Shown here: positions 1,744 through 53,443 of the stretch, one piece after another
How the letters are laid out: each line of letters opens with the position of its first letter
How positions within the stretch are numbered: the stretch's first letter is position 1
Assembly: GCA_012401045.1 (NCBI GenBank)
Contig: GCA_012401045.1_4704.1
Reading direction: 5' to 3' (one strand)
DNA from: a phage
Length of the DNA stretch: 64,000 bases
Made by a program: the position numbers and the translations under genes
Notes under the pieces: generated by a model
What the model was told of the DNA's origin: nothing
Seen by the model: the letters and a program-made list of their open reading frames with translations, nothing else
Databases searched by the model: none

Positions 1744-1774
1744 TAGGTAATATAACCCTGAAATTTTTTTCAAT
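1744..1774 (-). promoter_or_regulatory. Early-type promoter candidate (minus orientation: TATTG-AAAAAAA-N8-TATATTACCTA) for the 1-1674 gene
   Basis: Plus strand reads TAGGTAATATAACCCTGAAATTTTTTTCAAT; same motif recurs at 30707-30738, 53412-53443 and (variant) 16405-16434; TATATTAC matches the phiKZ early promoter consensus as I recall it. Confidence 0.55.
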
Positions 1775-29051: not shown

Positions 29052-29591
29052 TTACTGTTTGTTCGTGGCTTCACGAATGAAAATGACATCAGGATATTCT
29101 TGAGATTCAATGAATTCAGGATTACGATAACGACGAATATGACGCATCGTTGTACAAGCAAGTTTGTAAAGATGTTCCTCCTCACGTTGTGTTAATAACA
29201 TCAGTTGCGCGTCTGGAATCACGAATGGGAGTCTTTCATTCACGTATTCCCGAAGGTCATCGAGATCATCGTGATGAATGCCCTCTGAGAGCTTATATAA
29301 CGCTTCCAGCAATTCTAATCCACCGAACTGGTAACTTCCTATTGTCGTCTTAAACAATGCGCCAGAACGCGTGGTGGATGCTCTATCGGCGACATCGTAT
29401 TGTTCTAACATATATCCGTAGACCATGCTACGTCGATCCAGTGTATCCGTAACGAGATTACGCCACCGTTCCAGTCTTTCGAGCGCTTTGTCGATAGAGT
29501 AAACGATCATGCCATGTTCATCCAACTCTTCCGCAATACCCAATAGTTCATTGTTGTTAGGTTTTGCTGCACCGATAAGAAAAACACTCAT
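29052..29591 (-). CDS. Hypothetical protein (179 aa)
   Basis: ATG overlaps upstream stop (TAATG). Confidence 0.6.
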   Translation of the reverse strand: MSVFLIGAAKPNNNELLGIAEELDEHGMIVYSIDKALERLERWRNLVTDTLDRRSMVYGYMLEQYDVADRASTTRSGALFKTTIGSYQFGGLELLEALYKLSEGIHHDDLDDLREYVNERLPFVIPDAQLMLLTQREEEHLYKLACTTMRHIRRYRNPEFIESQEYPDVIFIREATNKQ

Positions 29592-30004
29592 TACTCAAAC
29601 TCCTTATTCCAAAACTCGATTAATGAATCGAGCTGTTCCTTACTGGTTATCTCACCTCCCCTAACAAAATGAAATCGTTCTTGAATGGCGATCTTTTCAA
29701 GGATATCGGTAAGCAAATGACGGTGACAGAAATTTCCTGCAGGACAATAACACCCTAACACCACAACCGGATGGGAGAATAAAGCCAACCATTCCGGTGT
29801 ATGATCAACAAAGCTTTTGCGCATAAGCGCGTAGTAGCCTGTGGTATATTCATCCTCGGTTAACGTTTTTGATTTGATTCCTGTAACAAGTTCCCATGAA
29901 GGTGCGAAGAGTGGGTTACCTGTTTTCACCGTCGTGTCCAGTAGGAACGCTCGTGTGTCTGAAAGCCAACGATATTTGGCTAATTGAAGGGTGTATAAAA
30001 ACAC
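29591..30004 (-). CDS. Hypothetical protein (137 aa) with GCYCPAGNFCHRH motif
   Basis: GTG start (weak SD); Cys/His cluster suggests metal binding. Confidence 0.45.
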   Translation of the reverse strand: MFLYTLQLAKYRWLSDTRAFLLDTTVKTGNPLFAPSWELVTGIKSKTLTEDEYTTGYYALMRKSFVDHTPEWLALFSHPVVVLGCYCPAGNFCHRHLLTDILEKIAIQERFHFVRGGEITSKEQLDSLIEFWNKEFE

Positions 30005-30046
30005 AGCGCTAACCCCAAAGGATAAAAATAAAACCTTGACATAACC

Positions 30047-30080
30047 ACCACCGCAACCCCATACAGGGCTACGGTGGGGT
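30047..30080 (-). terminator. Terminator candidate after abundant early gene
   Basis: acccca/tggggt or ccaccg/cggtgg stem followed on minus strand by GTTTTATTTTTAT. Confidence 0.45.
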
Positions 30081-30107
30081 CATACAGAGAGACGTGTTAA
30101 GTTACAA

Positions 30108-30587
30108 TCAGTCTTTCAGCAGCTCAGCTGCATACGCACTGATGTTGTCGCGAATATGCTTAACCTGAGTTGTTGGGAAAGATTTCTTATACGCGGTGGT
30201 CAGGCGTCCGTAAACCTGTTTCTTCTCGTTAGAGCCGAAACCAACTTCAGCGCTACGTTGAACCGTTGCGGACACAACGTCTTTGCCCAGCGGCAGGGTT
30301 ACAGAAACAACGTCAACCTGCTTGTTATCCGCCATGAACTGCGCGCCAACGCGACCTACCGCCAGACCATGAGCCAGACCGATATCGGTGGTCAGTTTCT
30401 GTGCTTTTTCCAGGATTTCTTTTTCTTCCGGCGTTACCAGAGTACCCAGGAAATCACTGCCTAACTTCTGGCTACCAGATTCGTCCAGTTTAATACCAGC
30501 GGCGATTTTATCAGAAAGAGCCTGAACTTCCGGACGTACGTTAGAAGTGGTTTCAGTCGCTACGGTGGTTTCTACAGCTTCAGACAT
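30108..30587 (-). CDS. Abundant early protein of unknown function (159 aa)
   Basis: Strong codon optimisation; early-type promoter motif 120 nt upstream; terminator downstream. Confidence 0.75.
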   Translation of the reverse strand: MSEAVETTVATETTSNVRPEVQALSDKIAAGIKLDESGSQKLGSDFLGTLVTPEEKEILEKAQKLTTDIGLAHGLAVGRVGAQFMADNKQVDVVSVTLPLGKDVVSATVQRSAEVGFGSNEKKQVYGRLTTAYKKSFPTTQVKHIRDNISAYAAELLKD

Positions 30588-30706
30588 GTTAATACTCCAA
30601 TTAGTTTTTTCGATCGATCAAAAGGATAAAATCAGAAGATTCTTTCTTCATAGGGAAAACACAAGTCGGTTAAGGTTTACTTCTTAAACTCCTTGCGTTC
30701 TATCAG

Positions 30707-30738
30707 TTAGGTAATATAGACCTCAACTTTTTTCCAAT
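30707..30738 (-). promoter_or_regulatory. Early-type promoter candidate (minus orientation ATTGGAAAAAAGTTGAGGTCTATATTACCTAA)
   Basis: Only a minus-strand gene lies downstream, which fixes motif orientation; overlaps the stop codon of the upstream gene. Confidence 0.55.
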
Positions 30739-31523
30739 AATGCTGCAACGTTCCGCGCGAAACGAATTACCTTGTAATTGCGGGTCTGTTTGATATCTTC
30801 TTCCCCATCACTGTCACCTTCAGACGGATCTTCCCACATGAAGTCTTGTTCGTCCGCTTTCTGTAAGTAGCGGTATAACTGCACCATGCTGCGTGCGGTC
30901 GGAGAGATAGCGCGAAGCTCATCCAATTCTTCATCCGTGAGCAGAACATGCGGTGAACGCAGTGGTTCCATTGTTGTATTACACAACAGACGAATCAGCA
31001 GATCGACGCACGGAATAACCGAACCTGGTGAGGCGATTTCTGGGTGTAATGTATAACCCCAATATACGGTGTTAAAATACGTCAAAACAGCAGGTAGTGA
31101 CGGATGTTCCATCGCACGGCCAATTTGCTGTCTTACGATAGATGCACGATCGTTCAATACATCGAAAGTAATCTGCTGCGGTTCCATAACCGCAAGTGAA
31201 ATACCGTATGCGTCAGCCACACCCAGGATTTCATGAAGGGCCGAACGTTCTTCTTCGGTGGATATTGTCCCGATTGCCTTACGCCCTGCAAGGTCAATCA
31301 GCATCGGTGAAACAGCTTCTTTAACCGCATTAAAAGAAGCCTGGTAAGCGTGTTTGTGAATATACAGTGTCCACGCTAATGCGCGCTCAGCCGCATGAAG
31401 CAGATCGACATAAGACAGTTCTTGATGGCATGGGCCATACACACTCACAGCAAGCTTGGTGGCTTTCTCAGAGGCTTGCATAATAACATCTGGTGATTTA
31501 GGCATATCGCGTTCTTCTTGCAT
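30723..31523 (-). CDS. Hypothetical protein (266 aa)
   Basis: SD AGGAA; two ATGCCGT-type motifs upstream. Confidence 0.65.
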   Translation of the reverse strand: MQEERDMPKSPDVIMQASEKATKLAVSVYGPCHQELSYVDLLHAAERALAWTLYIHKHAYQASFNAVKEAVSPMLIDLAGRKAIGTISTEEERSALHEILGVADAYGISLAVMEPQQITFDVLNDRASIVRQQIGRAMEHPSLPAVLTYFNTVYWGYTLHPEIASPGSVIPCVDLLIRLLCNTTMEPLRSPHVLLTDEELDELRAISPTARSMVQLYRYLQKADEQDFMWEDPSEGDSDGEEDIKQTRNYKVIRFARNVAALLEKS

Positions 31524-35995: not shown

Positions 35996-38900
35996 TTATT
36001 TAGCGTCGTTAAAGTAAATATCAACAGCTCGTTCCGTTGCGTAGAGGAGACCAAGATTCACAGTCCCAACCACTTCCGGTGAACCGATGATACGGTTAGC
36101 GATACTGGTGCCACTGAAGATAGCATCAAGGGTGTGCCCGTCTTCGGTTTTGTTCACACCATGACCCACGGAAGAGACAACGGATTTCGCTTGAGCTGCG
36201 AAGGTACCTTTATCGCCCATCCCCGCACCAAGGTCGTAACGCATGAAAATACGGATTGCGATCTGGTTCTCGCCTAACGGATTACCGTCTATTCTCACGT
36301 TACTGTTATTGATACGCCCCGTAGCTGCTTCGTTGAGTTTCAGTTCCTTAACGCGTTTAGCTCGCGCTTTATCTGCATCACCGACGAGCGCCGCCATGGT
36401 TTCACTCATATCCTCAATCTGAGCGCGGTACAACACATCGATCTGTACAACTTCACCATGAACGTCAGCACGTGGGTTATACTGACTCATACGACGTAAT
36501 GCTTCAACGGCTTCCTGACTCTCATCACTCAGATCGGTCGCAATCGGTTCTTCCAGTGTTGCAAGGATCGTTCGTGGTTCAACATGATCGCCGATTTTCA
36601 CGAGACCACGAATGTTGAGATGGGCGTCAACGATGAGCGTACGGCTCTTAATCGATGGTGTTACGAGACGATCGGCAAGATTGTCGAAGATATACGAACT
36701 GTCCTCGTGAGTCTCTGGAATATCCAGAATACCGACAAGAGACAGAACACCTGCGCGCCAAACAACCTGACCTGGGTTCCACCAATCGCGTTTAAAATAA
36801 AGACGATGGAAGACCACCACATCCTGATCCTTAACGCGATCCCCGACTTTATAATCGGTAATAAGATCGTGAGGATAATACTTACCTGGTCCTTTCCCGA
36901 TTATCGTGCCGAGTTGGAAAACCTCTTCTCCTAACTCTGGATCGTCGTATTGTATCGTAAGCGCAGTTTTGGTGACCTTCTTAACAACACCATCGCCTTG
37001 GGCAGCTGCTGCGAAGAGCTTACCAACACGATGCGCGATAACGGTCTCACCGCCGGTGCGCCACGGTTGTACATCGTAACCCTCAGCGGCAATCATGCGG
37101 TTGTGTTGGATCCCGACGAAGACCAGACGTTTTCCATCATCACGGTCTACGGCTGGAACAGCTAACGCCGACGTACTCATTACCGATGAGATACCGTCTG
37201 TCTTTTCATCGAATGGTCGTGTTTCACCATACACCGACACGATATTAGCATTAGGTGCAAGGTAAGCTGAGATACCCACATCCCCACTATCTTTCGTACC
37301 CTCTGACACAATACCAACATCGGACTTGTCGTATTCACGATCACGTGCGCGTCGAAGCGATGTCTTTGAACGACCCCCGATACCGGTCATCGTTGCTTCT
37401 TCACCCTGCTTGATATCCAGCATCGGGTTGGTTTCATCGATCACGATGGACGCGCTGTCGTCGAGAATTTGGTTCCAGACGCTTACCGGACTGATTGAGA
37501 TTTTCTGGCGATTTCCTTGACTGCTGTTCTCATTCTGACGAATAGCGCCAACCAGATCCTTATACACCAATTCAGCGAACTTATCGTACGTTTTAAAACG
37601 TTGGTAGTTCACATCGTTGGTGTTAGGTGCCCAGTCATCCAGAAGCAGTTCAACAGCACGCAGTAACAACATGGCGAAATCGGTAGGTTCTCCCATGTTC
37701 TGTAGCAACGTACGGCTTACCGGATCAACGAAAAGACGCTCCATGAGTTCAAGTTCGCGTAAATGGCGAACCTTAAGTCCAGCACCATCAACAACGTTAA
37801 AATAGATATCTCGATTGTCGAAAGCACCGCGAGCGTAACCGATGTAGTTACGGTATTCGTTAAACCCACCCAGCAACAACGTCGTCATGCGATCGTCTTT
37901 ACTGAAGATCAAACTTTCGTCATCAAAGCTCACCGCGAATTCATCGGGTGCTAATCCCATACGAGAACCGCGAGGTACCGTACGATAGTTCGCTTTAAGA
38001 TGTTCTAATAACGGGGTAAGTCCACCCAGATAACTTAGAACGACACCAACCGGAATACGTACACCCATGAATTCAAGATCGGCGGCTTCGATCGGCATCT
38101 TAGCCGCATTGATACCGAAGAAATCAGGGAACGTCCCTACAGGTGTTGGTGTTTGTCCTGACTGACAGATATAGAGCTGATTGCGTTTATCGATTGCTAA
38201 GAATTCACCCAGCGTGTTACGCGCAAACGTCAGGAGCCCTTCGGCTAACTGTTCGTTGAACCGATCTTCCCCGATGAACTCCGGCAATGTCTTTGTATCG
38301 AGACGTATATCCCAATCAGCAAATTGGATTTGGGTATAGTTGCGTGCAAGCACAGCGAAGTAATACGGGACTTTGACGGCCGGATCAAAGACGTTACCAC
38401 GTTTTAACGTGGTTAAGGGTGAGGACTTATCGTAATACATCGCTGTAAGTTGGCGTGTTAACCAACGACCGGCGTTATTAACGACACGCTCTGAACGTTT
38501 AACAAACACCTTACCGTAGGCGGTACTCAACGCAACTTCGGATGATGATACCTTTCTAATAGGTTTATCAACACGTTGTTTACGCATCCGGTATTTGATG
38601 CCGTTAACGACATAAATGCCGTCCTTACGAACCTTCGGCAACATCACCGGGAACGTGGTTGGGACACCGCCTACAGGGGCCAGTTTAATCGTGATAACTT
38701 GATAATCCCCCATCACGTCAACAACATCTTCAACTTTATATCCCGTGACAGGGTAACCTGCCTGTTGTACGGCAACAACAGCGGCTGCGATGTCCTTTTG
38801 CATCACGTGTTCAACGTAATGTTTATCCCACACCGCAAGCGTCGATTTACATAGGCTCTTATCGACGATAACATCCGCTTCCGGCATAACCTTTGCTGGC

Positions 38901-40342
38901 GCTAATTTCGCGGCTTTTGGTTTAACTTCAACATACTCAGCAAGTGTTAATCCAGAACCGTCGGGTGCTTCGATTTCATGGATGGCGTCGGCATTACGCA
39001 TCGCTGCTTTATATTGGACACCGCTTAACTGACCCGCATCCGCCAGATCGCTCGCGCGCACCAACACCGCATCCGATAACGACTGAATATATTCACCGTG
39101 TGTTTTTGGTAACGTTGCCGCGTCAAAGACATCAACCTTTTCTTCTTCGGTATCGTCGGTAACGACCTCGAAGAGATCGTCGGTAATGTCCTGATCTTCA
39201 TCGGGTTGGAAATCCGGCTGTACTTCTACCCCGGGTACTTCACGGACATCTTCGAACGAGCGTTCTACAATGGCGTTCCACGCATCAGCGTCATCGTCTT
39301 CATCCGACCCACCAACCAACTCCGCTTCTAACTCATCGGGATCAAGAACAGTGGCCAGATCCTCACCGTTAGGAAGCACGACGTCGCGATCATCGTACTC
39401 TGCATCCGGGCTGTCCGCAAGAATATCTCGCTCTTGACGAAGAACCTGTTCCTCTTCTTGTTTCTGTTCTTCTTCATTCGCGCTCTGCGACCATAGACGT
39501 GTTACCGCCATCATCCAACGACGCTGGAAGGTTTCGAGTGTCGTTTTATCGAGTTCTTCCCCTTCCTTTACAAGCCCGGTACGCCATTCTTCCAACAGGC
39601 CGAGATTCAGCGTAAAGAAGTACACGCCGTCTGTAAATACAACGTTAAGCTTATCCAGCGTGGCTCTGTCTAACGAAGCCATCGTGCTGTTCTCACGATC
39701 GGTTCCCAGCCAGCGGAAGAAGTCAAAGAACGACAGCTCCTCCGGCGTAGCGAAATTCATGAGGTTGTTACGGGTCGGTGCCTGTTGCGTGGTACGCATC
39801 AACGAAATCTTCGGCAATGTTGACGGTATACGGAACAACAGAAAGTGTTGGCGATCGCTTTGCTGCGCGATTTCGTTGGCTTTCGACCAAATTGTTTTAC
39901 GTACGTTGAACCATTCATCATACCAACGGGTGAGCGTTGGACGATAGATGTACATGTGGTTAAGATGTGCGTAGTTAGCAACGATCTGAGCGTTGATGTT
40001 TTTCTCCACCGTACTTAGATCGGTAACCAAACGAAAACGACGATGTGACGCACGATAATCCAATTTCGCTCGTGGGAGCTGGAATCGCTGATCACGTCGA
40101 GGTGCACCCTGTTTGGTTGCGAGATCATCAGCAAACGAAATCCATAGTTGAGCACTTTCTTTACTCAACATGTATTCGTTTTCTGGAGGACCTATCAATG
40201 AAGGATCCGTTGCGGTGTAATGATAGACAGCATAACGTGGCAGCTGCAATAGCTGCACTAAACGTAATCTCGGTGACAATAGCTCTTGGTAGCGTCTGAC
40301 GCCAAACTGTCGGTAGTAATCAAGGTATTTAAGTTTTGCCAT
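35996..40342 (-). CDS. Multisubunit RNA polymerase beta-like subunit (1448 aa)
   Basis: IVSVYGETRPFDEKTDGISSVMSTSALAVP (cf. E. coli beta [32 protein letters not shown]), GMGDKGTFA and EDGHTLDAIFSGTSIANRIIG (cf. beta RHGNKGV / DIVLNPLGVPSRMNIGQ), E. coli comparisons from memory. Confidence 0.65.
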   Translation of the reverse strand: MAKLKYLDYYRQFGVRRYQELLSPRLRLVQLLQLPRYAVYHYTATDPSLIGPPENEYMLSKESAQLWISFADDLATKQGAPRRDQRFQLPRAKLDYRASHRRFRLVTDLSTVEKNINAQIVANYAHLNHMYIYRPTLTRWYDEWFNVRKTIWSKANEIAQQSDRQHFLLFRIPSTLPKISLMRTTQQAPTRNNLMNFATPEELSFFDFFRWLGTDRENSTMASLDRATLDKLNVVFTDGVYFFTLNLGLLEEWRTGLVKEGEELDKTTLETFQRRWMMAVTRLWSQSANEEEQKQEEEQVLRQERDILADSPDAEYDDRDVVLPNGEDLATVLDPDELEAELVGGSDEDDDADAWNAIVERSFEDVREVPGVEVQPDFQPDEDQDITDDLFEVVTDDTEEEKVDVFDAATLPKTHGEYIQSLSDAVLVRASDLADAGQLSGVQYKAAMRNADAIHEIEAPDGSGLTLAEYVEVKPKAAKLAPAKVMPEADVIVDKSLCKSTLAVWDKHYVEHVMQKDIAAAVVAVQQAGYPVTGYKVEDVVDVMGDYQVITIKLAPVGGVPTTFPVMLPKVRKDGIYVVNGIKYRMRKQRVDKPIRKVSSSEVALSTAYGKVFVKRSERVVNNAGRWLTRQLTAMYYDKSSPLTTLKRGNVFDPAVKVPYYFAVLARNYTQIQFADWDIRLDTKTLPEFIGEDRFNEQLAEGLLTFARNTLGEFLAIDKRNQLYICQSGQTPTPVGTFPDFFGINAAKMPIEAADLEFMGVRIPVGVVLSYLGGLTPLLEHLKANYRTVPRGSRMGLAPDEFAVSFDDESLIFSKDDRMTTLLLGGFNEYRNYIGYARGAFDNRDIYFNVVDGAGLKVRHLRELELMERLFVDPVSRTLLQNMGEPTDFAMLLLRAVELLLDDWAPNTNDVNYQRFKTYDKFAELVYKDLVGAIRQNENSSQGNRQKISISPVSVWNQILDDSASIVIDETNPMLDIKQGEEATMTGIGGRSKTSLRRARDREYDKSDVGIVSEGTKDSGDVGISAYLAPNANIVSVYGETRPFDEKTDGISSVMSTSALAVPAVDRDDGKRLVFVGIQHNRMIAAEGYDVQPWRTGGETVIAHRVGKLFAAAAQGDGVVKKVTKTALTIQYDDPELGEEVFQLGTIIGKGPGKYYPHDLITDYKVGDRVKDQDVVVFHRLYFKRDWWNPGQVVWRAGVLSLVGILDIPETHEDSSYIFDNLADRLVTPSIKSRTLIVDAHLNIRGLVKIGDHVEPRTILATLEEPIATDLSDESQEAVEALRRMSQYNPRADVHGEVVQIDVLYRAQIEDMSETMAALVGDADKARAKRVKELKLNEAATGRINNSNVRIDGNPLGENQIAIRIFMRYDLGAGMGDKGTFAAQAKSVVSSVGHGVNKTEDGHTLDAIFSGTSIANRIIGSPEVVGTVNLGLLYATERAVDIYFNDAK

Positions 40343-40345
40343 GGG

Positions 40346-41992
40346 TTAGGCTCCACGAGGTCCCGTTAAGTTGCGTAATAGGAACGCAACCGTATCGTAA
40401 CCAATATCGATGTTGAATTTATTTTTACCACTTACCCAGAAAGCTCGCTTCTTGTGCGAGTTGGTAATTTCGTCAATAGCTTCCATGGAATAAAGAACGT
40501 TAACCGAGACCGTATCACCATCAAAGTCCCCACCAAGTCCGGCGAGGTATGGCGCAGGGACAATAGTCGTTTCTACGAACGAAGCATTAGGTAACCAGTC
40601 GGGGTATTCCCATGCGATAAATCGTTCATCCGTTATTGGTTCCCAGTTACTATCCAGTTCGGTTTTCGGTTTTGCGGCGACGGTTGTACGTGCGTAACAG
40701 GTTAACGGGATAACGGATTGCATACCTGATACCGGATAACGTGTTACCATCGCAGCCAGGTTATTCCAGTACTTATATCCGGCAATATAGATAAGCTCGG
40801 TGTAAGTAATGGGGTGAACATCCGCGCCAGGTTTATTCAACATCTCCGGGGGTAATTCACTCATGCCACGGAATAACCGAAACGAATCGTTGTTCACATA
40901 GACGAGGCAAAGATATCGTCCATTGACCATGATAGGCTCGTTACGCACGCCAGGATCGCTTAAGGTGTTCAGTAAACGTTCTATTCCGTCCCATGTTGTA
41001 AAGTCATCGATGGTGTCTGGATCAAGCGTGACGCGCTCACGTTCCATCGTTTCGGTATCAGTAAGTTCAACTTCTGTAACATCACGGACAAATATTTCCT
41101 GCAAAATACCGGTACGTAACGCATGTTGCGTTACTGGGAGAGCGGCTTTACTCATCTGGTATAACCCTAACTGAACCGCGGTACAGGAAGGCTGGTTAGG
41201 CGACCCTAATACCTCCGTTGTGGGGTTAATTGCCGAAATAACGTTACGGGTTGAGTTCCAAACGCGACGTGAACCAAACTTACCTTGGAAGATCCCTTTC
41301 TTACCCTGGAACATATCCAACAGTAAAGCGTAGATATCGTTGAATGTTCTCTGTAAGCTCCAGCGCTGGCCGTCGTAAACGGGATCGGAATAATCTTTTA
41401 ATCCATCAGGGACGGTGTTAGAAATTGCAAGGAAACGACGATACAACTCCGTGATTTCTTGCTCGCTTTCATACCCACCTTCTTTTACTTCTATTTCACG
41501 TAAGCCTGCAGGCAATACCAGTAAGTGACGGGTCATCGCTTTGAACATGTTCTCTTCGACAACTTTAATTCGTAGCTCTCGTTGAGCTGAACCCGTTGAA
41601 ACGAACTTGATATCCGCGACGTGTTGTGCAAAGAACCCGTATCCTGTTTGTCCTGTTAATGCATCAGACGCAACGAAGTCGCGTTGTTCGGGATCCCACC
41701 GAGCGTACGCCTTCCCCGACATGATATCGCCATAGAGGTGTTTTAATCGAATGAGACGGTCGTAAATGACAGGATGCAGGATTTCAACCTTGCATTCAAT
41801 CACCGCAAATCGACGGTCTCGATCTTCACTACCCGCACTACCAAAGATGGTGTAAGAATAGAAACCATCATCGTGGAAATTACCGGTGCTTGGGTCACGA
41901 ATGCTCATGCTCGTGATCTTGGGGAGAAAACGTAACTGCTGTTTATCGAGGTGTAAAATACTAATATTAAACGGCTCTCTGACTTTAGCCAT
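40346..41992 (-). CDS. Multisubunit RNA polymerase beta-prime N-terminal-half homolog (about 548 aa)
   Basis: C-terminal GGDFDGDTVSVNV (beta-prime NADFDGD catalytic motif), GKKGIFQGKFGSRRVWNSTRNVISAINP (cf. LLGKRVDYSGRSVIVVGP), RRFAVIECKVEILHPVIY; start ATG 41992 with SD AAGAGGAG. Confidence 0.8.
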   Translation of the reverse strand: MAKVREPFNISILHLDKQQLRFLPKITSMSIRDPSTGNFHDDGFYSYTIFGSAGSEDRDRRFAVIECKVEILHPVIYDRLIRLKHLYGDIMSGKAYARWDPEQRDFVASDALTGQTGYGFFAQHVADIKFVSTGSAQRELRIKVVEENMFKAMTRHLLVLPAGLREIEVKEGGYESEQEITELYRRFLAISNTVPDGLKDYSDPVYDGQRWSLQRTFNDIYALLLDMFQGKKGIFQGKFGSRRVWNSTRNVISAINPTTEVLGSPNQPSCTAVQLGLYQMSKAALPVTQHALRTGILQEIFVRDVTEVELTDTETMERERVTLDPDTIDDFTTWDGIERLLNTLSDPGVRNEPIMVNGRYLCLVYVNNDSFRLFRGMSELPPEMLNKPGADVHPITYTELIYIAGYKYWNNLAAMVTRYPVSGMQSVIPLTCYARTTVAAKPKTELDSNWEPITDERFIAWEYPDWLPNASFVETTIVPAPYLAGLGGDFDGDTVSVNVLYSMEAIDEITNSHKKRAFWVSGKNKFNIDIGYDTVAFLLRNLTGPRGA

Positions 41993-42237
41993 GGAGACAC
42001 TCCTCTTTACCACCACCGGCTGCGGCGGTATCATCTGAACACACGAGAGACGTAATGGGTGATGGCGTCACCCATCGCTTCCTTGCTTGAGGCGAGGAAG
42101 TTATTAGGTTACGTACCTGCCTGATTTTATCAGGTGGGCGATGTGTGAAGTTACGCTTCAACATTATCAATGCCGAAGGTAAACTTCGTGCATCACGTTC
42201 CAACGTAACATGGGAACGTATCGAACTGGAGGTATAC

Positions 42238-51148: not shown

Positions 51149-52216
51149 TTAACCCAACGTCACCGTCGGTAAATCAGGATAAAGTTTCTTCAAGCCTGCC
51201 ATCGTGGTGGCAGTTGTATAATTCTTACCCATCGCAGCAAGAGATGCGTATTTCCTACTGCGGGAGAAAAGAGAATAGAACCCACTGGATGTTTCCATCC
51301 ACATCGTGAGGAGTTCTGCATCATTACCGTGATAGTTCGTTTTACTCCATCCTGGTTTAAACGCATCAGCAAAATCAATTAAACGCGATGCTTCAGCGTC
51401 GTATTCTTTAAGGGTAATATACGATGGGATACGGTAGTTACGAAACAATAACGTAATGAGTTCAGGGACAACGCTACGGGCACGTTCAGCAGTAATAAGT
51501 TCGGTGATAACGGCAGCTGTACGGAAATCGCCGTTAAGGCCAACGCTGCTTAACGATTCCGCTAAAGTGGTTGCCATCGCCACTTTATCCTCCGCTGATC
51601 CAGAGTCATACAGACTACGTACGTCGATATAGTTGCCCGCTAATGCGGCTTGACGAATCAACGATGTGACAACCGTCCGGTTCGTCTTATAGTCGTTGTA
51701 GCTGAATTCGGTTCGCGTTTTCCCTTGATCGTCGAGATACCGATCAACAATCGTCGACAGTTTATAATACTCGTCGCCAGACATCAGACTATCGAGAAGC
51801 TTAACGTTTCCATCTTTATCAATAAGCTTCCCTAACGCACCATTGGATTGCTGGTTAATGGTACTGTAAATCTGGTCTTTTACTTGCGATAGAATGTTAT
51901 CGGTTGACGATATATTCAGGCCAGTAACATCTTTGATCTTATTCATCAACGCGTTTTCATTCAGGGAGATTTTGCCTCCGCTGATATCGATGAAAGAATT
52001 AAGATCGCTTATGGAAATCAGGTTTCCTGTTAACGCCGATAATGTACTATTGATACTGTTCGTAATACTGCTGCGAAAACTGGTTAACGCATCCGCCGCT
52101 GAAACAGCGGTACCGCTAACCGCTTTAAGGAGCGTATCACGCCCTGTCGAAAAATCGCTGGTGATGGTTTTGATCTTGGACGTATCTATACTCGGCAGTT
52201 TGTCGTAAAGACTCAT
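51149..52216 (-). CDS. Hypothetical Ser/Thr-rich protein (about 356 aa)
   Basis: Start ATG 52216 with SD AGGAGGA; ORF-track N-terminal extension (hydrophobic FFFLF) rejected. Confidence 0.6.
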   Translation of the reverse strand: MSLYDKLPSIDTSKIKTITSDFSTGRDTLLKAVSGTAVSAADALTSFRSSITNSINSTLSALTGNLISISDLNSFIDISGGKISLNENALMNKIKDVTGLNISSTDNILSQVKDQIYSTINQQSNGALGKLIDKDGNVKLLDSLMSGDEYYKLSTIVDRYLDDQGKTRTEFSYNDYKTNRTVVTSLIRQAALAGNYIDVRSLYDSGSAEDKVAMATTLAESLSSVGLNGDFRTAAVITELITAERARSVVPELITLLFRNYRIPSYITLKEYDAEASRLIDFADAFKPGWSKTNYHGNDAELLTMWMETSSGFYSLFSRSRKYASLAAMGKNYTTATTMAGLKKLYPDLPTVTLG

Positions 52217-52298: not shown

Positions 52299-52811
52299 TT
52301 AAACTTCTTCGTTTTCTGAACCTAATGATTCAGCATCTGGATCGTCAACAGGAATGGTTGCATCAAAATACCGTTTCGTATGCGTGGTTGTATATCCTAC
52401 GCTATCTGTGATGGAAATCGTAAACGTGACTTCCCTTGCACGGATTAAGCGTAGTTTATTCATGAAGTTACGGAACGGCATCGATCCCCGATTCAACTCC
52501 TTAATGACGTTTCCCCGAATACTGGAAATGTCTTTATTCGTTTTATCAGGGTGTCGTTTCTTCACATCACGCATATGTCGGGTAATATACGAATTGAGCT
52601 GATTTGCGCCGATCCCTCTCTCCGTATAAATCTGCAACAGGAACTCCGTAAGGAAATCCTGTCTACCCGTAGGCGTCCAGAAATTGTTACCGTGATTGTA
52701 GTTAGTCGCTCGTCCTCGATTGCTTTGAGGATTTTCATCATCGCTTTCATCACGACGCTTAAGCGGATTAATGCGTGCGCGGAAAGAGACTTCATTATAT
52801 TTATTTGTCAT
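52299..52811 (-). CDS. Hypothetical basic protein (about 170 aa)
   Basis: ATG overlapping upstream stop (ATGA coupling). Confidence 0.55.
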   Translation of the reverse strand: MTNKYNEVSFRARINPLKRRDESDDENPQSNRGRATNYNHGNNFWTPTGRQDFLTEFLLQIYTERGIGANQLNSYITRHMRDVKKRHPDKTNKDISSIRGNVIKELNRGSMPFRNFMNKLRLIRAREVTFTISITDSVGYTTTHTKRYFDATIPVDDPDAESLGSENEEV

Positions 52812-53323
52812 AATACACCAGTGTACTGACTGAGTGCGAAGGTTAGGAGTTCGCAACAGTCTCTCGCTAGTTTCCTTGTTTTGCGTAATCCATAAGCCGC
52901 ATCCAAATCGTCACGTTCCGCCAGCGCGTCTAACCACGTCGCAAGTATGCGTCCATACTCGATAACGTCACGCATGAGAACGTCGAACCGGATAACACGA
53001 CCATCGGCATCAGCAAGCCAACGATTGAACGTGATTTGTGGTGCTAGTATTGCATATGTTCTCTCCTCTAATGCGATTATGTTTATGTTGCCTTCGTTAT
53101 CGAACGCTTGATGCCAACGGCGAAGGTCAAGCATCAACGACTCAGCGTCCATATACCACAACGGTAAATACGTTTTACGTGCAACGCGTATATCGTAGAT
53201 GTTGTGAACCCAGGACGTTGTTTTGTAAAGCAACAAGAGTTCGTTTAACCGTTGCCTATCATCTTGAAACGTCTTCCTTTTATAACGTTGGAACGCACGC
53301 CTCAAGAAAAAGCGATGTAACAT
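52808..53323 (-). CDS. Hypothetical early protein (171 aa)
   Basis: SD AGGTGA; early-type promoter motif about 95 nt upstream. Confidence 0.6.
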   Translation of the reverse strand: MLHRFFLRRAFQRYKRKTFQDDRQRLNELLLLYKTTSWVHNIYDIRVARKTYLPLWYMDAESLMLDLRRWHQAFDNEGNINIIALEERTYAILAPQITFNRWLADADGRVIRFDVLMRDVIEYGRILATWLDALAERDDLDAAYGLRKTRKLARDCCELLTFALSQYTGVL

Positions 53324-53411: not shown

Positions 53412-53443
53412 AAGGTAATATAGTCCTGTTATTTTTTTCAATA
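53412..53443 (-). promoter_or_regulatory. Early-type promoter candidate (minus orientation ATTGAAAAAAATAACAGGACTATATTACCTT)
   Basis: Third copy of A-tract + TATATTACCT motif; divergent region. Confidence 0.5.

What the first reader, a model, noticed from the sequence alone, without database searches (positions are those of the whole stretch)
30108..30587. Small abundant early protein with its own promoter and terminator
A 159-aa ORF with very strong codon optimisation sits between an early-type promoter (5' UTR about 120 nt) and a terminator. It has no recognisable motif. A stand-alone highly expressed early gene in a jumbo phage is a candidate host-takeover, anti-defence or nucleus-associated factor.
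Basis: inference. Interest (0 to 1): 0.6.

Follow-up and report, generated by a model that had tools for sequence, protein, structure and literature searches.

The report
Abundant early jumbo-phage protein, also in virions
This is a real, very highly expressed small gene of a Goslar-like nucleus-forming jumbo phage; it has a chimallin-type early promoter, its protein is also found in hundreds of copies in purified virions, its phiKZ relative is essential, and its function is still unknown.

Summary
The ORF is real but lies on the minus strand (30108..30587, 159 aa). The window is a ~97.5% relative of Escherichia phage Goslar, and the protein is 100% identical to Goslar gp214 (YP_009820905).

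- A 30-nt promoter motif is shared only with chimallin (chmA) and gp200. It occurs 3 times against 0 expected.
- A strong RNA hairpin follows the stop codon.
- E. coli CAI is 0.64, rank 1 of 61 genes in the window. The Goslar gene ranks 4 of 248, beside MCP, gp58, gp23 and ChmA.
- No Pfam, NCBIfam, PADLOC or PDB relative was found, although the AF2 model is confident (pLDDT 92).

**What changes the picture**
- Goslar gp214 is reported at about 600-1,400 copies per CsCl-purified virion.
- Profile searches place it in one family with phiKZ gp186. That gene is described as an early transcript, takes no transposon insertions, and its antisense knock-down abolishes plaques.
- Orthologues in RAY, Eowyn and phiKZ sit behind the same A-tract-TATATTAC promoter.

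**Best reading:** an essential protein needed in large amounts, made immediately after infection, that also ends up in virions. Its mechanism is unknown.

The parts
30709..30738 (-). Early-type (virion RNA polymerase) promoter: ATTGGAAAAAAGTTGAGGTCTATATTACCT, starting 5 nt after the stop codon of the upstream gene (gp213-like, 30723..31523)
   Evidence: The 30-nt IUPAC motif occurs 3 times in the window and 0 times in 100 shuffles. The other copies are at 1745-1774(-), before chimallin, and at 53413-53442(-), before gp200. Goslar-wide there are only the same 3 exact sites plus about 10 looser TAYATTACY sites, all on the minus strand and intergenic. Orthologues in RAY, Eowyn and phiKZ carry the same element.
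30588..30703 (-). Inferred 5' untranslated leader of about 115 nt. It contains a 16-codon uORF with no ribosome-binding site and one TATG.
   Evidence: Sequence read. Folding is no better than shuffles (z -1.5). No Rfam family reaches threshold. The TATG is not conserved in the RAY or Eowyn leaders. The transcription start is inferred, not mapped.
30595..30598 (-). Shine-Dalgarno GGAG, 7 nt before the ATG
   Evidence: Read directly from the sequence.
30108..30587 (-). CDS of 159 aa (17.0 kDa, pI 5.75, no TM segment), 100% identical to Goslar gp214 (HOV27_gp214, YP_009820905.1, Goslar_00221)
   Evidence: All 8 of 8 differences from Goslar are synonymous. CAI 0.637, rank 1 of 61. AF2 model has pLDDT 92 with residues 1-18 disordered, helices 19-31, 44-50, 53-87 and 139-157, and strands 93-100, 103-115 and 123-134. 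pI and hydropathy.
30037..30086 (-). Terminator-like RNA hairpin (stem of about 20 bp) followed by a U-rich tract at about 30023-30033
   Evidence: dG -34.5 kcal/mol, z -4.89, matched by 0 of 200 shuffles. Compared with Goslar the loop is inverted, and two 3'-arm changes keep pairing only as G.U in the minus-strand RNA. Orthologues in RAY, Eowyn, RTH11 and phiKZ also have a hairpin after the stop.

Best explanation
The region is a self-contained expression cassette for the Goslar-type member (gp214) of a conserved chimallivirus protein family that includes phiKZ gp186.

- **Transcription.** The injected virion RNA polymerase transcribes it from a promoter of the same 30-nt type as the nuclear-shell gene chmA. 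An RNA hairpin ends most transcripts, giving a monocistronic mRNA.
- **Translation.** A good Shine-Dalgarno sequence and near-maximal host codon adaptation make it one of the roughly five most abundant phage proteins.
- **Protein.** It is a soluble, non-enzymatic 17-kDa alpha/beta protein, predicted elsewhere to be a homodimer, with a disordered N-terminal tail. It most likely works by binding in large amounts rather than by catalysis.
- **Fate.** A large pool persists, and several hundred to more than 1,000 copies per particle end up in the virion. The protein may therefore be delivered with the genome and re-synthesised at once.
- **Importance.** In phiKZ the family member is indispensable.

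**Status of each step**
- Shown: the cassette anatomy, the family membership and the codon bias.
- Taken from the literature: virion abundance, early transcript status and essentiality.
- Inferred: early timing in this particular phage, injection into the host, and any molecular partner.
For: - **Promoter.** It is identical in type to chmA's and occurs 3 times against 0 expected. The same element lies upstream of the RAY gp173, Eowyn gp194 and phiKZ 185-186 orthologues. A review states that each RNAP-encoding jumbo phage has a conserved AT-rich motif near -10 upstream of early operons (PMC7598289).
- **Terminator.** Strong hairpin, with strand-specific G.U-preserving changes against Goslar.
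- **Codon adaptation.** CAI rank 1 of 61 in the window. In Goslar it ranks 4 of 248, next to MCP, gp58, gp23 and ChmA.
- **Conserved position.** Synteny of protease, then the homologue, then tail tube/sheath is kept in three genera.
- **Literature on the family.**
  - Goslar gp214 at about 865 (576-1359) copies per CsCl-purified virion (10.64898/2026.04.21.720040).
  - PHIKZ186 described as an early transcript, with two ASOs scoring +++ and ++ on plaque loss.
  - 0 transposon reads in PHIKZ186 against thousands in its neighbours 185 and 187 (PMC12676376).
  - RAY gp173 and Deimos-Minion gp179 detected in lysates at about 60% coverage.
Against: - No transcription start or time-course datum for this gene was available here, so early timing rests on motif class and on the phiKZ homologue.
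- Virion association rests on label-free MS alone. Only gp60, gp61, gp208 and gp209 were checked by GFP fusion.
- The protein is absent from the 28-protein Goslar cryo-EM model. It also matches no solved chain, in a PDB copy current to April 2026.
- phiKZ gp186 is not flagged as structural in the phiKZ record.
- The ChmA read-out of the ASO screen cannot date the function, because MCP knock-down also scores +++.
- PHIKZ186 aligns over only 87 columns and lacks part of the C-terminal region.
- No partner, ligand or activity is indicated by any search.
Confidence: 0.5

Rival explanations
1. It is primarily a virion component whose essential role is in head assembly or in the particle, for example internal head cargo, or a flexible or low-occupancy external protein. 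It would be made mostly late. The early-type promoter would be secondary or only add early leak.
For: - About 865 copies per CsCl-purified Goslar virion, third among the unmodelled proteins.
- Its CAI sits among those of MCP, gp58 and gp23, the major virion proteins.
- It lies in the head-morphogenesis neighbourhood, downstream of the prohead protease and of gp208-gp210. Of these, gp208 and gp209 are virion-packaged.
- This position is conserved in RAY, Eowyn and RTH11.
- Knock-down phenotypes of PHIKZ186 look like those of MCP (+++/+++).
- A/S/G-x-E protease-type motifs occur at residues 4-6 and 10-12.
Against: - MCP, gp58, gp23, gp22, sheath, gp88, gp208 and gp61 all lack the TATATTAC promoter, whereas this gene has the chmA-type version.
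- The promoter is conserved in orthologues of three other genera.
- PHIKZ186 is described as an early transcript.
- The protein is not in the cryo-EM model and matches no solved virion chain.
- An MS peptide spans the ATE12|T site uncut, and the N-terminal extension is not conserved in the family.
- phiKZ gp186 carries no structural note.
Confidence: 0.25
2. It is a purely intracellular early factor, as the first reader proposed (host takeover, anti-defence, or associated with the early infection vesicle or the phage nucleus). Its signal in virion preparations would be carry-over of an extremely abundant, perhaps sticky or self-assembling protein.
For: - The early-type promoter is shared with chmA.
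- Another 'abundant virion' protein, gp158, also sits in an early-promoter operon. This hints that very abundant early proteins can appear in the virion MS.
- Deep MS of CsCl-purified phiKZ detects 245 phage proteins, far more than the structural set.
- gp214 was not validated by GFP fusion.
- phiKZ gp186 is not annotated as structural.
Against: - About 5% of the LFQ signal after PEG precipitation, nuclease treatment and an equilibrium CsCl gradient is a lot for a contaminant.
- No similarity to any known anti-defence or takeover protein or fold.
- Essentiality in a laboratory host fits a core infection function better than a dispensable anti-defence factor.
Confidence: 0.2
3. The ORF is a chance open frame, or the signal belongs to the opposite (+) strand.
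For: ORFs of 102 and 45 aa overlap it on the + strand.
Against: - All 8 differences from Goslar are synonymous in the minus-strand frame.
- 23 peptides at 79% coverage map to the identical protein.
- A family of 56 representatives exists, with a confident fold.
- CAI is extreme in this frame.
Confidence: 0.01

Closest known systems
Goslar gp214 (HOV27_gp214, YP_009820905.1), listed as a high-copy virion-associated protein of unknown function in Basu et al. 2026 (bioRxiv 10.64898/2026.04.21.720040)
   Same: 100% identical protein. Same neighbours, promoter and terminator, in a genome that is about 97.5% identical at the DNA level.
   Different: Eight synonymous changes in the CDS, and an inverted terminator loop. 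The preprint does not discuss its promoter class or its relationship to phiKZ gp186.
phiKZ gp186 (PHIKZ186, PHROG 16459): an early transcript that is essential by ASO knock-down and by Tn-seq, with function unknown
   Same: - Same family by profile (E 1.3e-9), hhalign (96.8%) and reciprocal PHROG hits.
- Small and soluble.
- Lies behind an A-tract-TATATTAC promoter and is followed by a hairpin terminator.
   Different: - Only 134 aa, about 15% identity over the 87 aligned columns, and a divergent or shorter C-terminal part.
- It is the third gene of a 185-185.1-186 operon rather than monocistronic.
- It has a different genomic neighbourhood, next to thymidylate kinase and not the protease.
- It is listed as 'non-core' and has no structural annotation.
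Erwinia phage RAY gp173 / Deimos-Minion gp179 (PHROG 9746)
   Same: - Same family.
- Same position between the prohead protease and the tail tube/sheath.
- Same promoter element.
- Protein detected by MS.
   Different: About 31% identity, measured between RAY gp173 and P0002, the closest relative of the window protein. It was detected only in crude lysate, so the data say nothing about virion association.
T4 internal proteins IPI-III (small, abundant, packaged and injected head proteins). Comparison from general knowledge.
   Same: Small size and hundreds of copies per particle. The gene lies near the prohead protease. A possible delivery-with-DNA logic.
   Different: - No homology.
- Acidic to neutral rather than basic (pI 5.75; family median 6.8).
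- No conserved cleavable targeting peptide.
- Early-type rather than late promoter.
phiKZ gp014 (abundant early ribosome-binding protein) and chimallin ChmA
   Same: Same expression logic: early promoter and very high abundance. In Goslar the promoter is shared verbatim with chmA.
   Different: No sequence or fold similarity. Nothing here indicates a ribosome or nuclear-shell interaction.

Membership tests
gp214 / PHIKZ186 family (PHROG 9746 + 16459), uncharacterised chimallivirus proteins | Significant profile-level sequence match across most of the length | tested here: met
   PHROG 9746 E 1.1e-9 and PHROG 16459 E 0.0028. 56 representatives at E<=1e-3. The family HMM scores RTH11 at 152, RAY at 118, Eowyn at 115 and PHIKZ186 at 44 bits. 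hhalign to PHIKZ186 gives 96.8%. Cross-hits are reciprocal.
gp214 / PHIKZ186 family (PHROG 9746 + 16459), uncharacterised chimallivirus proteins | Single small domain of about 134-190 aa with the conserved G78 / R111 / G127 positions | tested here: met
   The 55-sequence alignment spans 144-187 aa. G127 is invariant, and G78 and R111 are at least 90% conserved.
gp214 / PHIKZ186 family (PHROG 9746 + 16459), uncharacterised chimallivirus proteins | Shared predicted fold | tested here: met
   The AF2 model (pLDDT 92) matches 14 BFVD jumbo-phage proteins at E<=1e-3. TM reaches 0.8 for Eowyn and about 0.5 for KTN4.
gp214 / PHIKZ186 family (PHROG 9746 + 16459), uncharacterised chimallivirus proteins | Essential for plaque formation | not testable with these tools
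   Known only for phiKZ: ASO scores of +++ and ++, and 0 Tn reads.
Chimallivirus early (virion RNA polymerase) promoter | Highly conserved AT-rich element of about 10 nt recurring upstream of presumed early operons, including chmA | tested here: met
   TATATTAC sits within a 30-nt motif shared with chmA and gp200: 3 found, 0 expected. About 13 related intergenic minus-strand sites occur in Goslar. The family definition is from PMC7598289. That TATATTAC is the exact phiKZ consensus is from my memory; it is consistent with the phiKZ 185 upstream sequence.
Chimallivirus early (virion RNA polymerase) promoter | Transcription start about 10 nt downstream, and transcript present within minutes of infection | not testable with these tools
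   A Goslar RNA-seq time course exists, but its table is not held.
Intrinsic terminator | Stable G+C-rich stem-loop in the transcript | tested here: met
   dG -34.5 kcal/mol, z -4.9. G.U-preserving substitutions against Goslar.
Intrinsic terminator | U-tract immediately after the stem | tested here: inconclusive
   The U-rich run (UUUUAUUUUU) begins a few nt after the stem. The consensus scan did not call it.
Virion structural or packaged protein | Detected in purified virions at meaningful copy number | tested here: met
   Literature datum for the identical Goslar protein: 79% coverage, 23 peptides, 576-1359 copies, CsCl-purified particles. Not re-measured here.
Virion structural or packaged protein | Assigned position in the particle, or similarity to a solved virion protein | tested here: not met
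Virion structural or packaged protein | Upstream region like that of the other major virion genes | tested here: not met
   MCP, gp58, gp23, gp22, sheath, gp88, gp208 and gp61 lack the TATATTAC element and have TATG-containing leaders. gp214 has the chmA-type promoter.
T4-type internal proteins / protease-processed head cargo | N-terminal targeting peptide removed by the prohead protease at its consensus site | tested here: inconclusive
   AVE(4-6) and ATE(10-12) fit S/A/G-x-E. However, a confident peptide, ATETTSNVRPEVQALSDK, starts at A10 and spans the second site. The stored peptide list is truncated. The N-terminal extension is absent from most family members.
T4-type internal proteins / protease-processed head cargo | Basic, DNA-associated | tested here: not met
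   pI 5.75. Family median pI is 6.8, range 5.2-9.5.
Known anti-defence or host-takeover proteins | Sequence or fold similarity to a characterised inhibitor or effector | tested here: not met

The most novel reading that the evidence does not exclude
gp214 and phiKZ gp186 represent a widely conserved, near-core chimallivirus protein with a fold unlike any solved structure. On this reading it is both injected in hundreds of copies and re-made from the strongest early promoter class. It would be required in large amounts for the first step of infection: establishing or maturing the early infection vesicle and handing the genome over to the chimallin shell. It might, for example, coat or organise the injected cargo, or help nucleate the ChmA shell. 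The published label 'non-core' would then be an artefact of sequence divergence.
Probability: 0.15. Interest if true: 0.8.

Novelty: already known. Interest (0 to 1): 0.55.

Why it matters
How nucleus-forming jumbo phages survive the first minutes of infection, and what the many high-copy unassigned virion proteins do, are open questions in the field.

This gene links two published but unconnected observations:
- an abundant unassigned Goslar virion protein;
- an essential early phiKZ gene of unknown function.

It joins them into one family with a conserved early-promoter cassette. That gives a short, well-defined candidate: 159 aa, soluble, with a confident model. It can be studied in an E. 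coli host where CRISPRi-ART knock-down and GFP-injection assays already exist.

If the protein is both delivered and re-made, it would be a clear example of a phage pre-loading a protein that it also needs from its first transcripts.

Tried and rejected
- **Word-indexed homology search.** It found only the near-identical cluster. The exhaustive HMMER search was needed to find the family.
- **Bare TATATTAC as evidence.** Rejected as non-significant on its own, then replaced by the 30-nt motif.
- **Sigma-70 promoter scan.** No enrichment.
- **A phiKZ-type late TATG promoter in the leader.** It is present, but expected by chance (my estimate is about 40% for a 125-nt leader) and is not conserved in the RAY or Eowyn leaders.
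- **Structured or Rfam element in the 5'UTR.** None found.
- **gp158 as a paralogue.** No: the family HMM hits only gp214 in Goslar.
- **T4-IP-like processed cargo.** Not supported.
- **Histone-like DNA binder.** Unlikely given the pI spread across the family.
- **PhiPA3 gp204, a ChmC eCLIP peak, as the homologue.** No: by gene order in the PhiPA3 record, the homologue should lie several genes downstream of gene 214, the PHIKZ182 homologue.
- **ChmA reduction after PHIKZ186 knock-down as proof of an early function.** Rejected, because MCP knock-down behaves the same way.
- **Other literature checks.** Nothing found on phiKZ gp186 in the phiKZ ribosome, Grad-seq and interactome papers or in Churi. 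The 201phi2-1 virion proteome paper is not held.

Full report
**What is there**

The finding's coordinates hold an ATG-to-TGA ORF of 159 aa, but it is on the minus strand.
- The window is a close relative of Escherichia phage Goslar, a nucleus-forming chimallivirus.
- It is collinear with Goslar at 97.2-97.6% identity, apart from one 2-kb indel.
- The protein is 100% identical to Goslar gp214, also named HOV27_gp214, YP_009820905.1 and Goslar_00221.
- All eight nucleotide differences from Goslar in the CDS are synonymous.

**Cassette anatomy**

*Promoter*
- Five nucleotides after the stop of the upstream gene lies ATTGGAAAAAAGTTGAGGTCTATATTACCT, at 30709-30738 on the minus strand.
- The bare TATATTAC is not significant: 5 found against 2.2 expected.
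- The 30-nt motif occurs three times in the window and never in 100 shuffles.
- The same three sites are the only exact matches in 236 kb of Goslar. The other two precede the nuclear-shell gene chmA (gp246) and gp200.
- A looser version, TTCAcGnnTAYATTACYTnnnTGA, marks about 13 intergenic minus-strand sites in Goslar, ahead of blocks of small genes.
- The late structural genes (MCP, gp58, gp23, gp22, sheath and others) lack it.
- This matches the published description of jumbo-phage early promoters: a conserved AT-rich element near -10, upstream of early operons (PMC7598289).

*Ribosome-binding site and terminator*
- A GGAG sits 7 nt before the ATG.
- After the stop codon there is a hairpin with a stem of about 20 bp, dG -34.5 kcal/mol and z -4.9, followed by a U-rich run.
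- Its differences from Goslar are a loop inversion plus two changes that keep pairing only as G.U in the minus-strand RNA.

**Expression level**

- E. coli CAI is 0.637 against a window median of 0.276, rank 1 of 61.
- In Goslar the gene ranks 4 of 248, after MCP gp41, gp58 and gp23 and just ahead of ChmA.

**The protein**

- No Pfam, NCBIfam, PADLOC or PDB-sequence match was found.
- An exhaustive HMMER search found 56 representatives, nearly all 144-187 aa and mostly aligning end to end, apart from one 37-aa fragment.
- With that alignment AlphaFold2 gives a confident model, pLDDT 92:
  - a disordered N-terminus (residues 1-18);
  - three helices, including a long one at 53-87;
  - a three-stranded sheet;
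  - a C-terminal helix.
- BFVD returns only uncharacterised jumbo-phage proteins.
- The protein has pI 5.75 and no hydrophobic segment. The family pI ranges from 5.2 to 9.5, which argues against a histone-like role.

**The family and its context**

- Homologues in Erwinia phage RAY (gp173), Klebsiella phage Eowyn (gp194) and Xanthomonas phage RTH11 occupy the same place, between the prohead protease and the tail tube/sheath genes.
- Each is flanked by intergenic gaps.
- RAY and Eowyn carry an A-tract followed by TATATTAC upstream, and all three have a hairpin downstream.
- The family profile also detects phiKZ gp186:
  - 43.8 bits, E 1.3e-9 for a million-sequence search space;
  - hhalign probability 96.8%;
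  - reciprocal PHROG 9746 and 16459 hits.
- PHIKZ186 is the last gene of a short operon that starts with ATTAAAAAAAATTTGAGATTTATATTAC, and it ends with a hairpin.

**What the literature adds**

1. **Goslar virions.** Basu et al. 2026 quantified CsCl-purified Goslar virions. They list gp214 as the third most abundant protein not placed in their cryo-EM model. Table S4 gives 79% coverage, 23 peptides and 576/865/1359 copies as low, mid and high estimates. The paper uses RefSeq numbering (gp217 tail tube, gp218 sheath), so this is our gene. The protein was not among the four checked with GFP fusions.
2. **ASO screen in phiKZ.** Gerovac et al. call PHIKZ186 an early expressed transcript. Two independent antisense oligomers strongly reduce plaques, scoring +++ and ++.
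3. **Transposon screen in phiKZ.** The library has 0 reads in PHIKZ186, against thousands in its neighbours 185 and 187.
4. **Erwinia phages.** RAY gp173 and Deimos-Minion gp179 were seen in lysates at about 60% coverage.

I found no paper that connects Goslar gp214 with phiKZ gp186.

**Interpretation**

Its interpretation is half right. I see three readings.

1. **Preferred (0.5).** An essential protein needed in large amounts is made at once from a chmA-class promoter. It persists and is carried in the particle, so it may act from time zero.
2. **Virion component (0.25).** It is mainly a head or virion component with a late function.
3. **Intracellular factor (0.2).** It is a purely intracellular early factor that co-purifies with virions.

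The ChmA read-out of the ASO screen cannot separate these readings, because MCP knock-down also lowers ChmA. A semi-tryptic peptide starting at A10 and spanning an A-x-E site argues weakly against protease processing, but the stored peptide table is truncated.

**Verdict**

This is a real, already catalogued gene of unknown mechanism. New here are the promoter class it shares with chmA, its conservation across genera, and the family link to an essential phiKZ gene. Interest is moderate. The Goslar RNA-seq table that would settle the timing has been published, but it was not available to me.

Noticed in passing
window 40519-40527 (junction); ORFs 40346..42034(-) and 35996..40342(-): The window lacks 2,051 bp present in Goslar (211748-213798: a group I intron plus the HNH endonuclease gp206). 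Here the gp205-like virion RNA polymerase beta ORF is 562 aa instead of 502 aa and abuts the gp207-like ORF. This looks like an intron-less allele that shows the spliced C-terminus.
   Followed up: partly
window 53413-53442(-), ORFs 52808..53323(-) and 52299..52856(-): A third exact copy of the 30-nt chmA-type promoter drives two small gp200/gp201-like ORFs. The gp200-like ORF has no PHROG match. They are likely also very early and strongly expressed genes.
   Followed up: partly
window 30037-30086(-): Compared with Goslar, the terminator hairpin has its loop replaced by its reverse complement (CATACA to TGTATG), a loop inversion. Two 3'-arm changes keep pairing only as G.U in the minus-strand RNA.
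   Followed up: yes
window 29591..30004(-): The next gene downstream (gp215-like, PHROG 2450) is conserved just after the gp214 homologue in RAY, Eowyn and RTH11. Its Eowyn homologue (gp196) carries the annotation label ORF151, which I read as a reference to phiKZ ORF151. Knock-down of PHIKZ151 increased plaque numbers in the ASO screen.
   Followed up: partly
L007 (Goslar 141553-142800), outside the window: Goslar gp158, the second most abundant unassigned virion protein, is the second gene of an operon behind an early-type TATATTAC promoter. So gp214 is not the only early-promoter gene whose product is abundant in virion MS. It is unrelated in sequence to gp214.
   Followed up: partly
window 30588-30703(-): The leader contains a 16-codon uORF (MKKESSDFILLIDRKN) with no ribosome-binding site, and a TATG resembling the phiKZ late start-site motif. 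Neither is supported as functional. The TATG is absent from the RAY and Eowyn leaders.
   Followed up: partly
window 51413-51421(-) and 52581-52589(-): Two further TATATTACC sites lie inside coding sequence and lack the extended upstream motif. They are probably chance matches.
   Followed up: yes
window 1745-1774(-): The chimallin (chmA, gp246) gene runs off the start of the window. Its promoter is the reference copy of the 30-nt motif, about 70 nt upstream of its ATG.
   Followed up: yes
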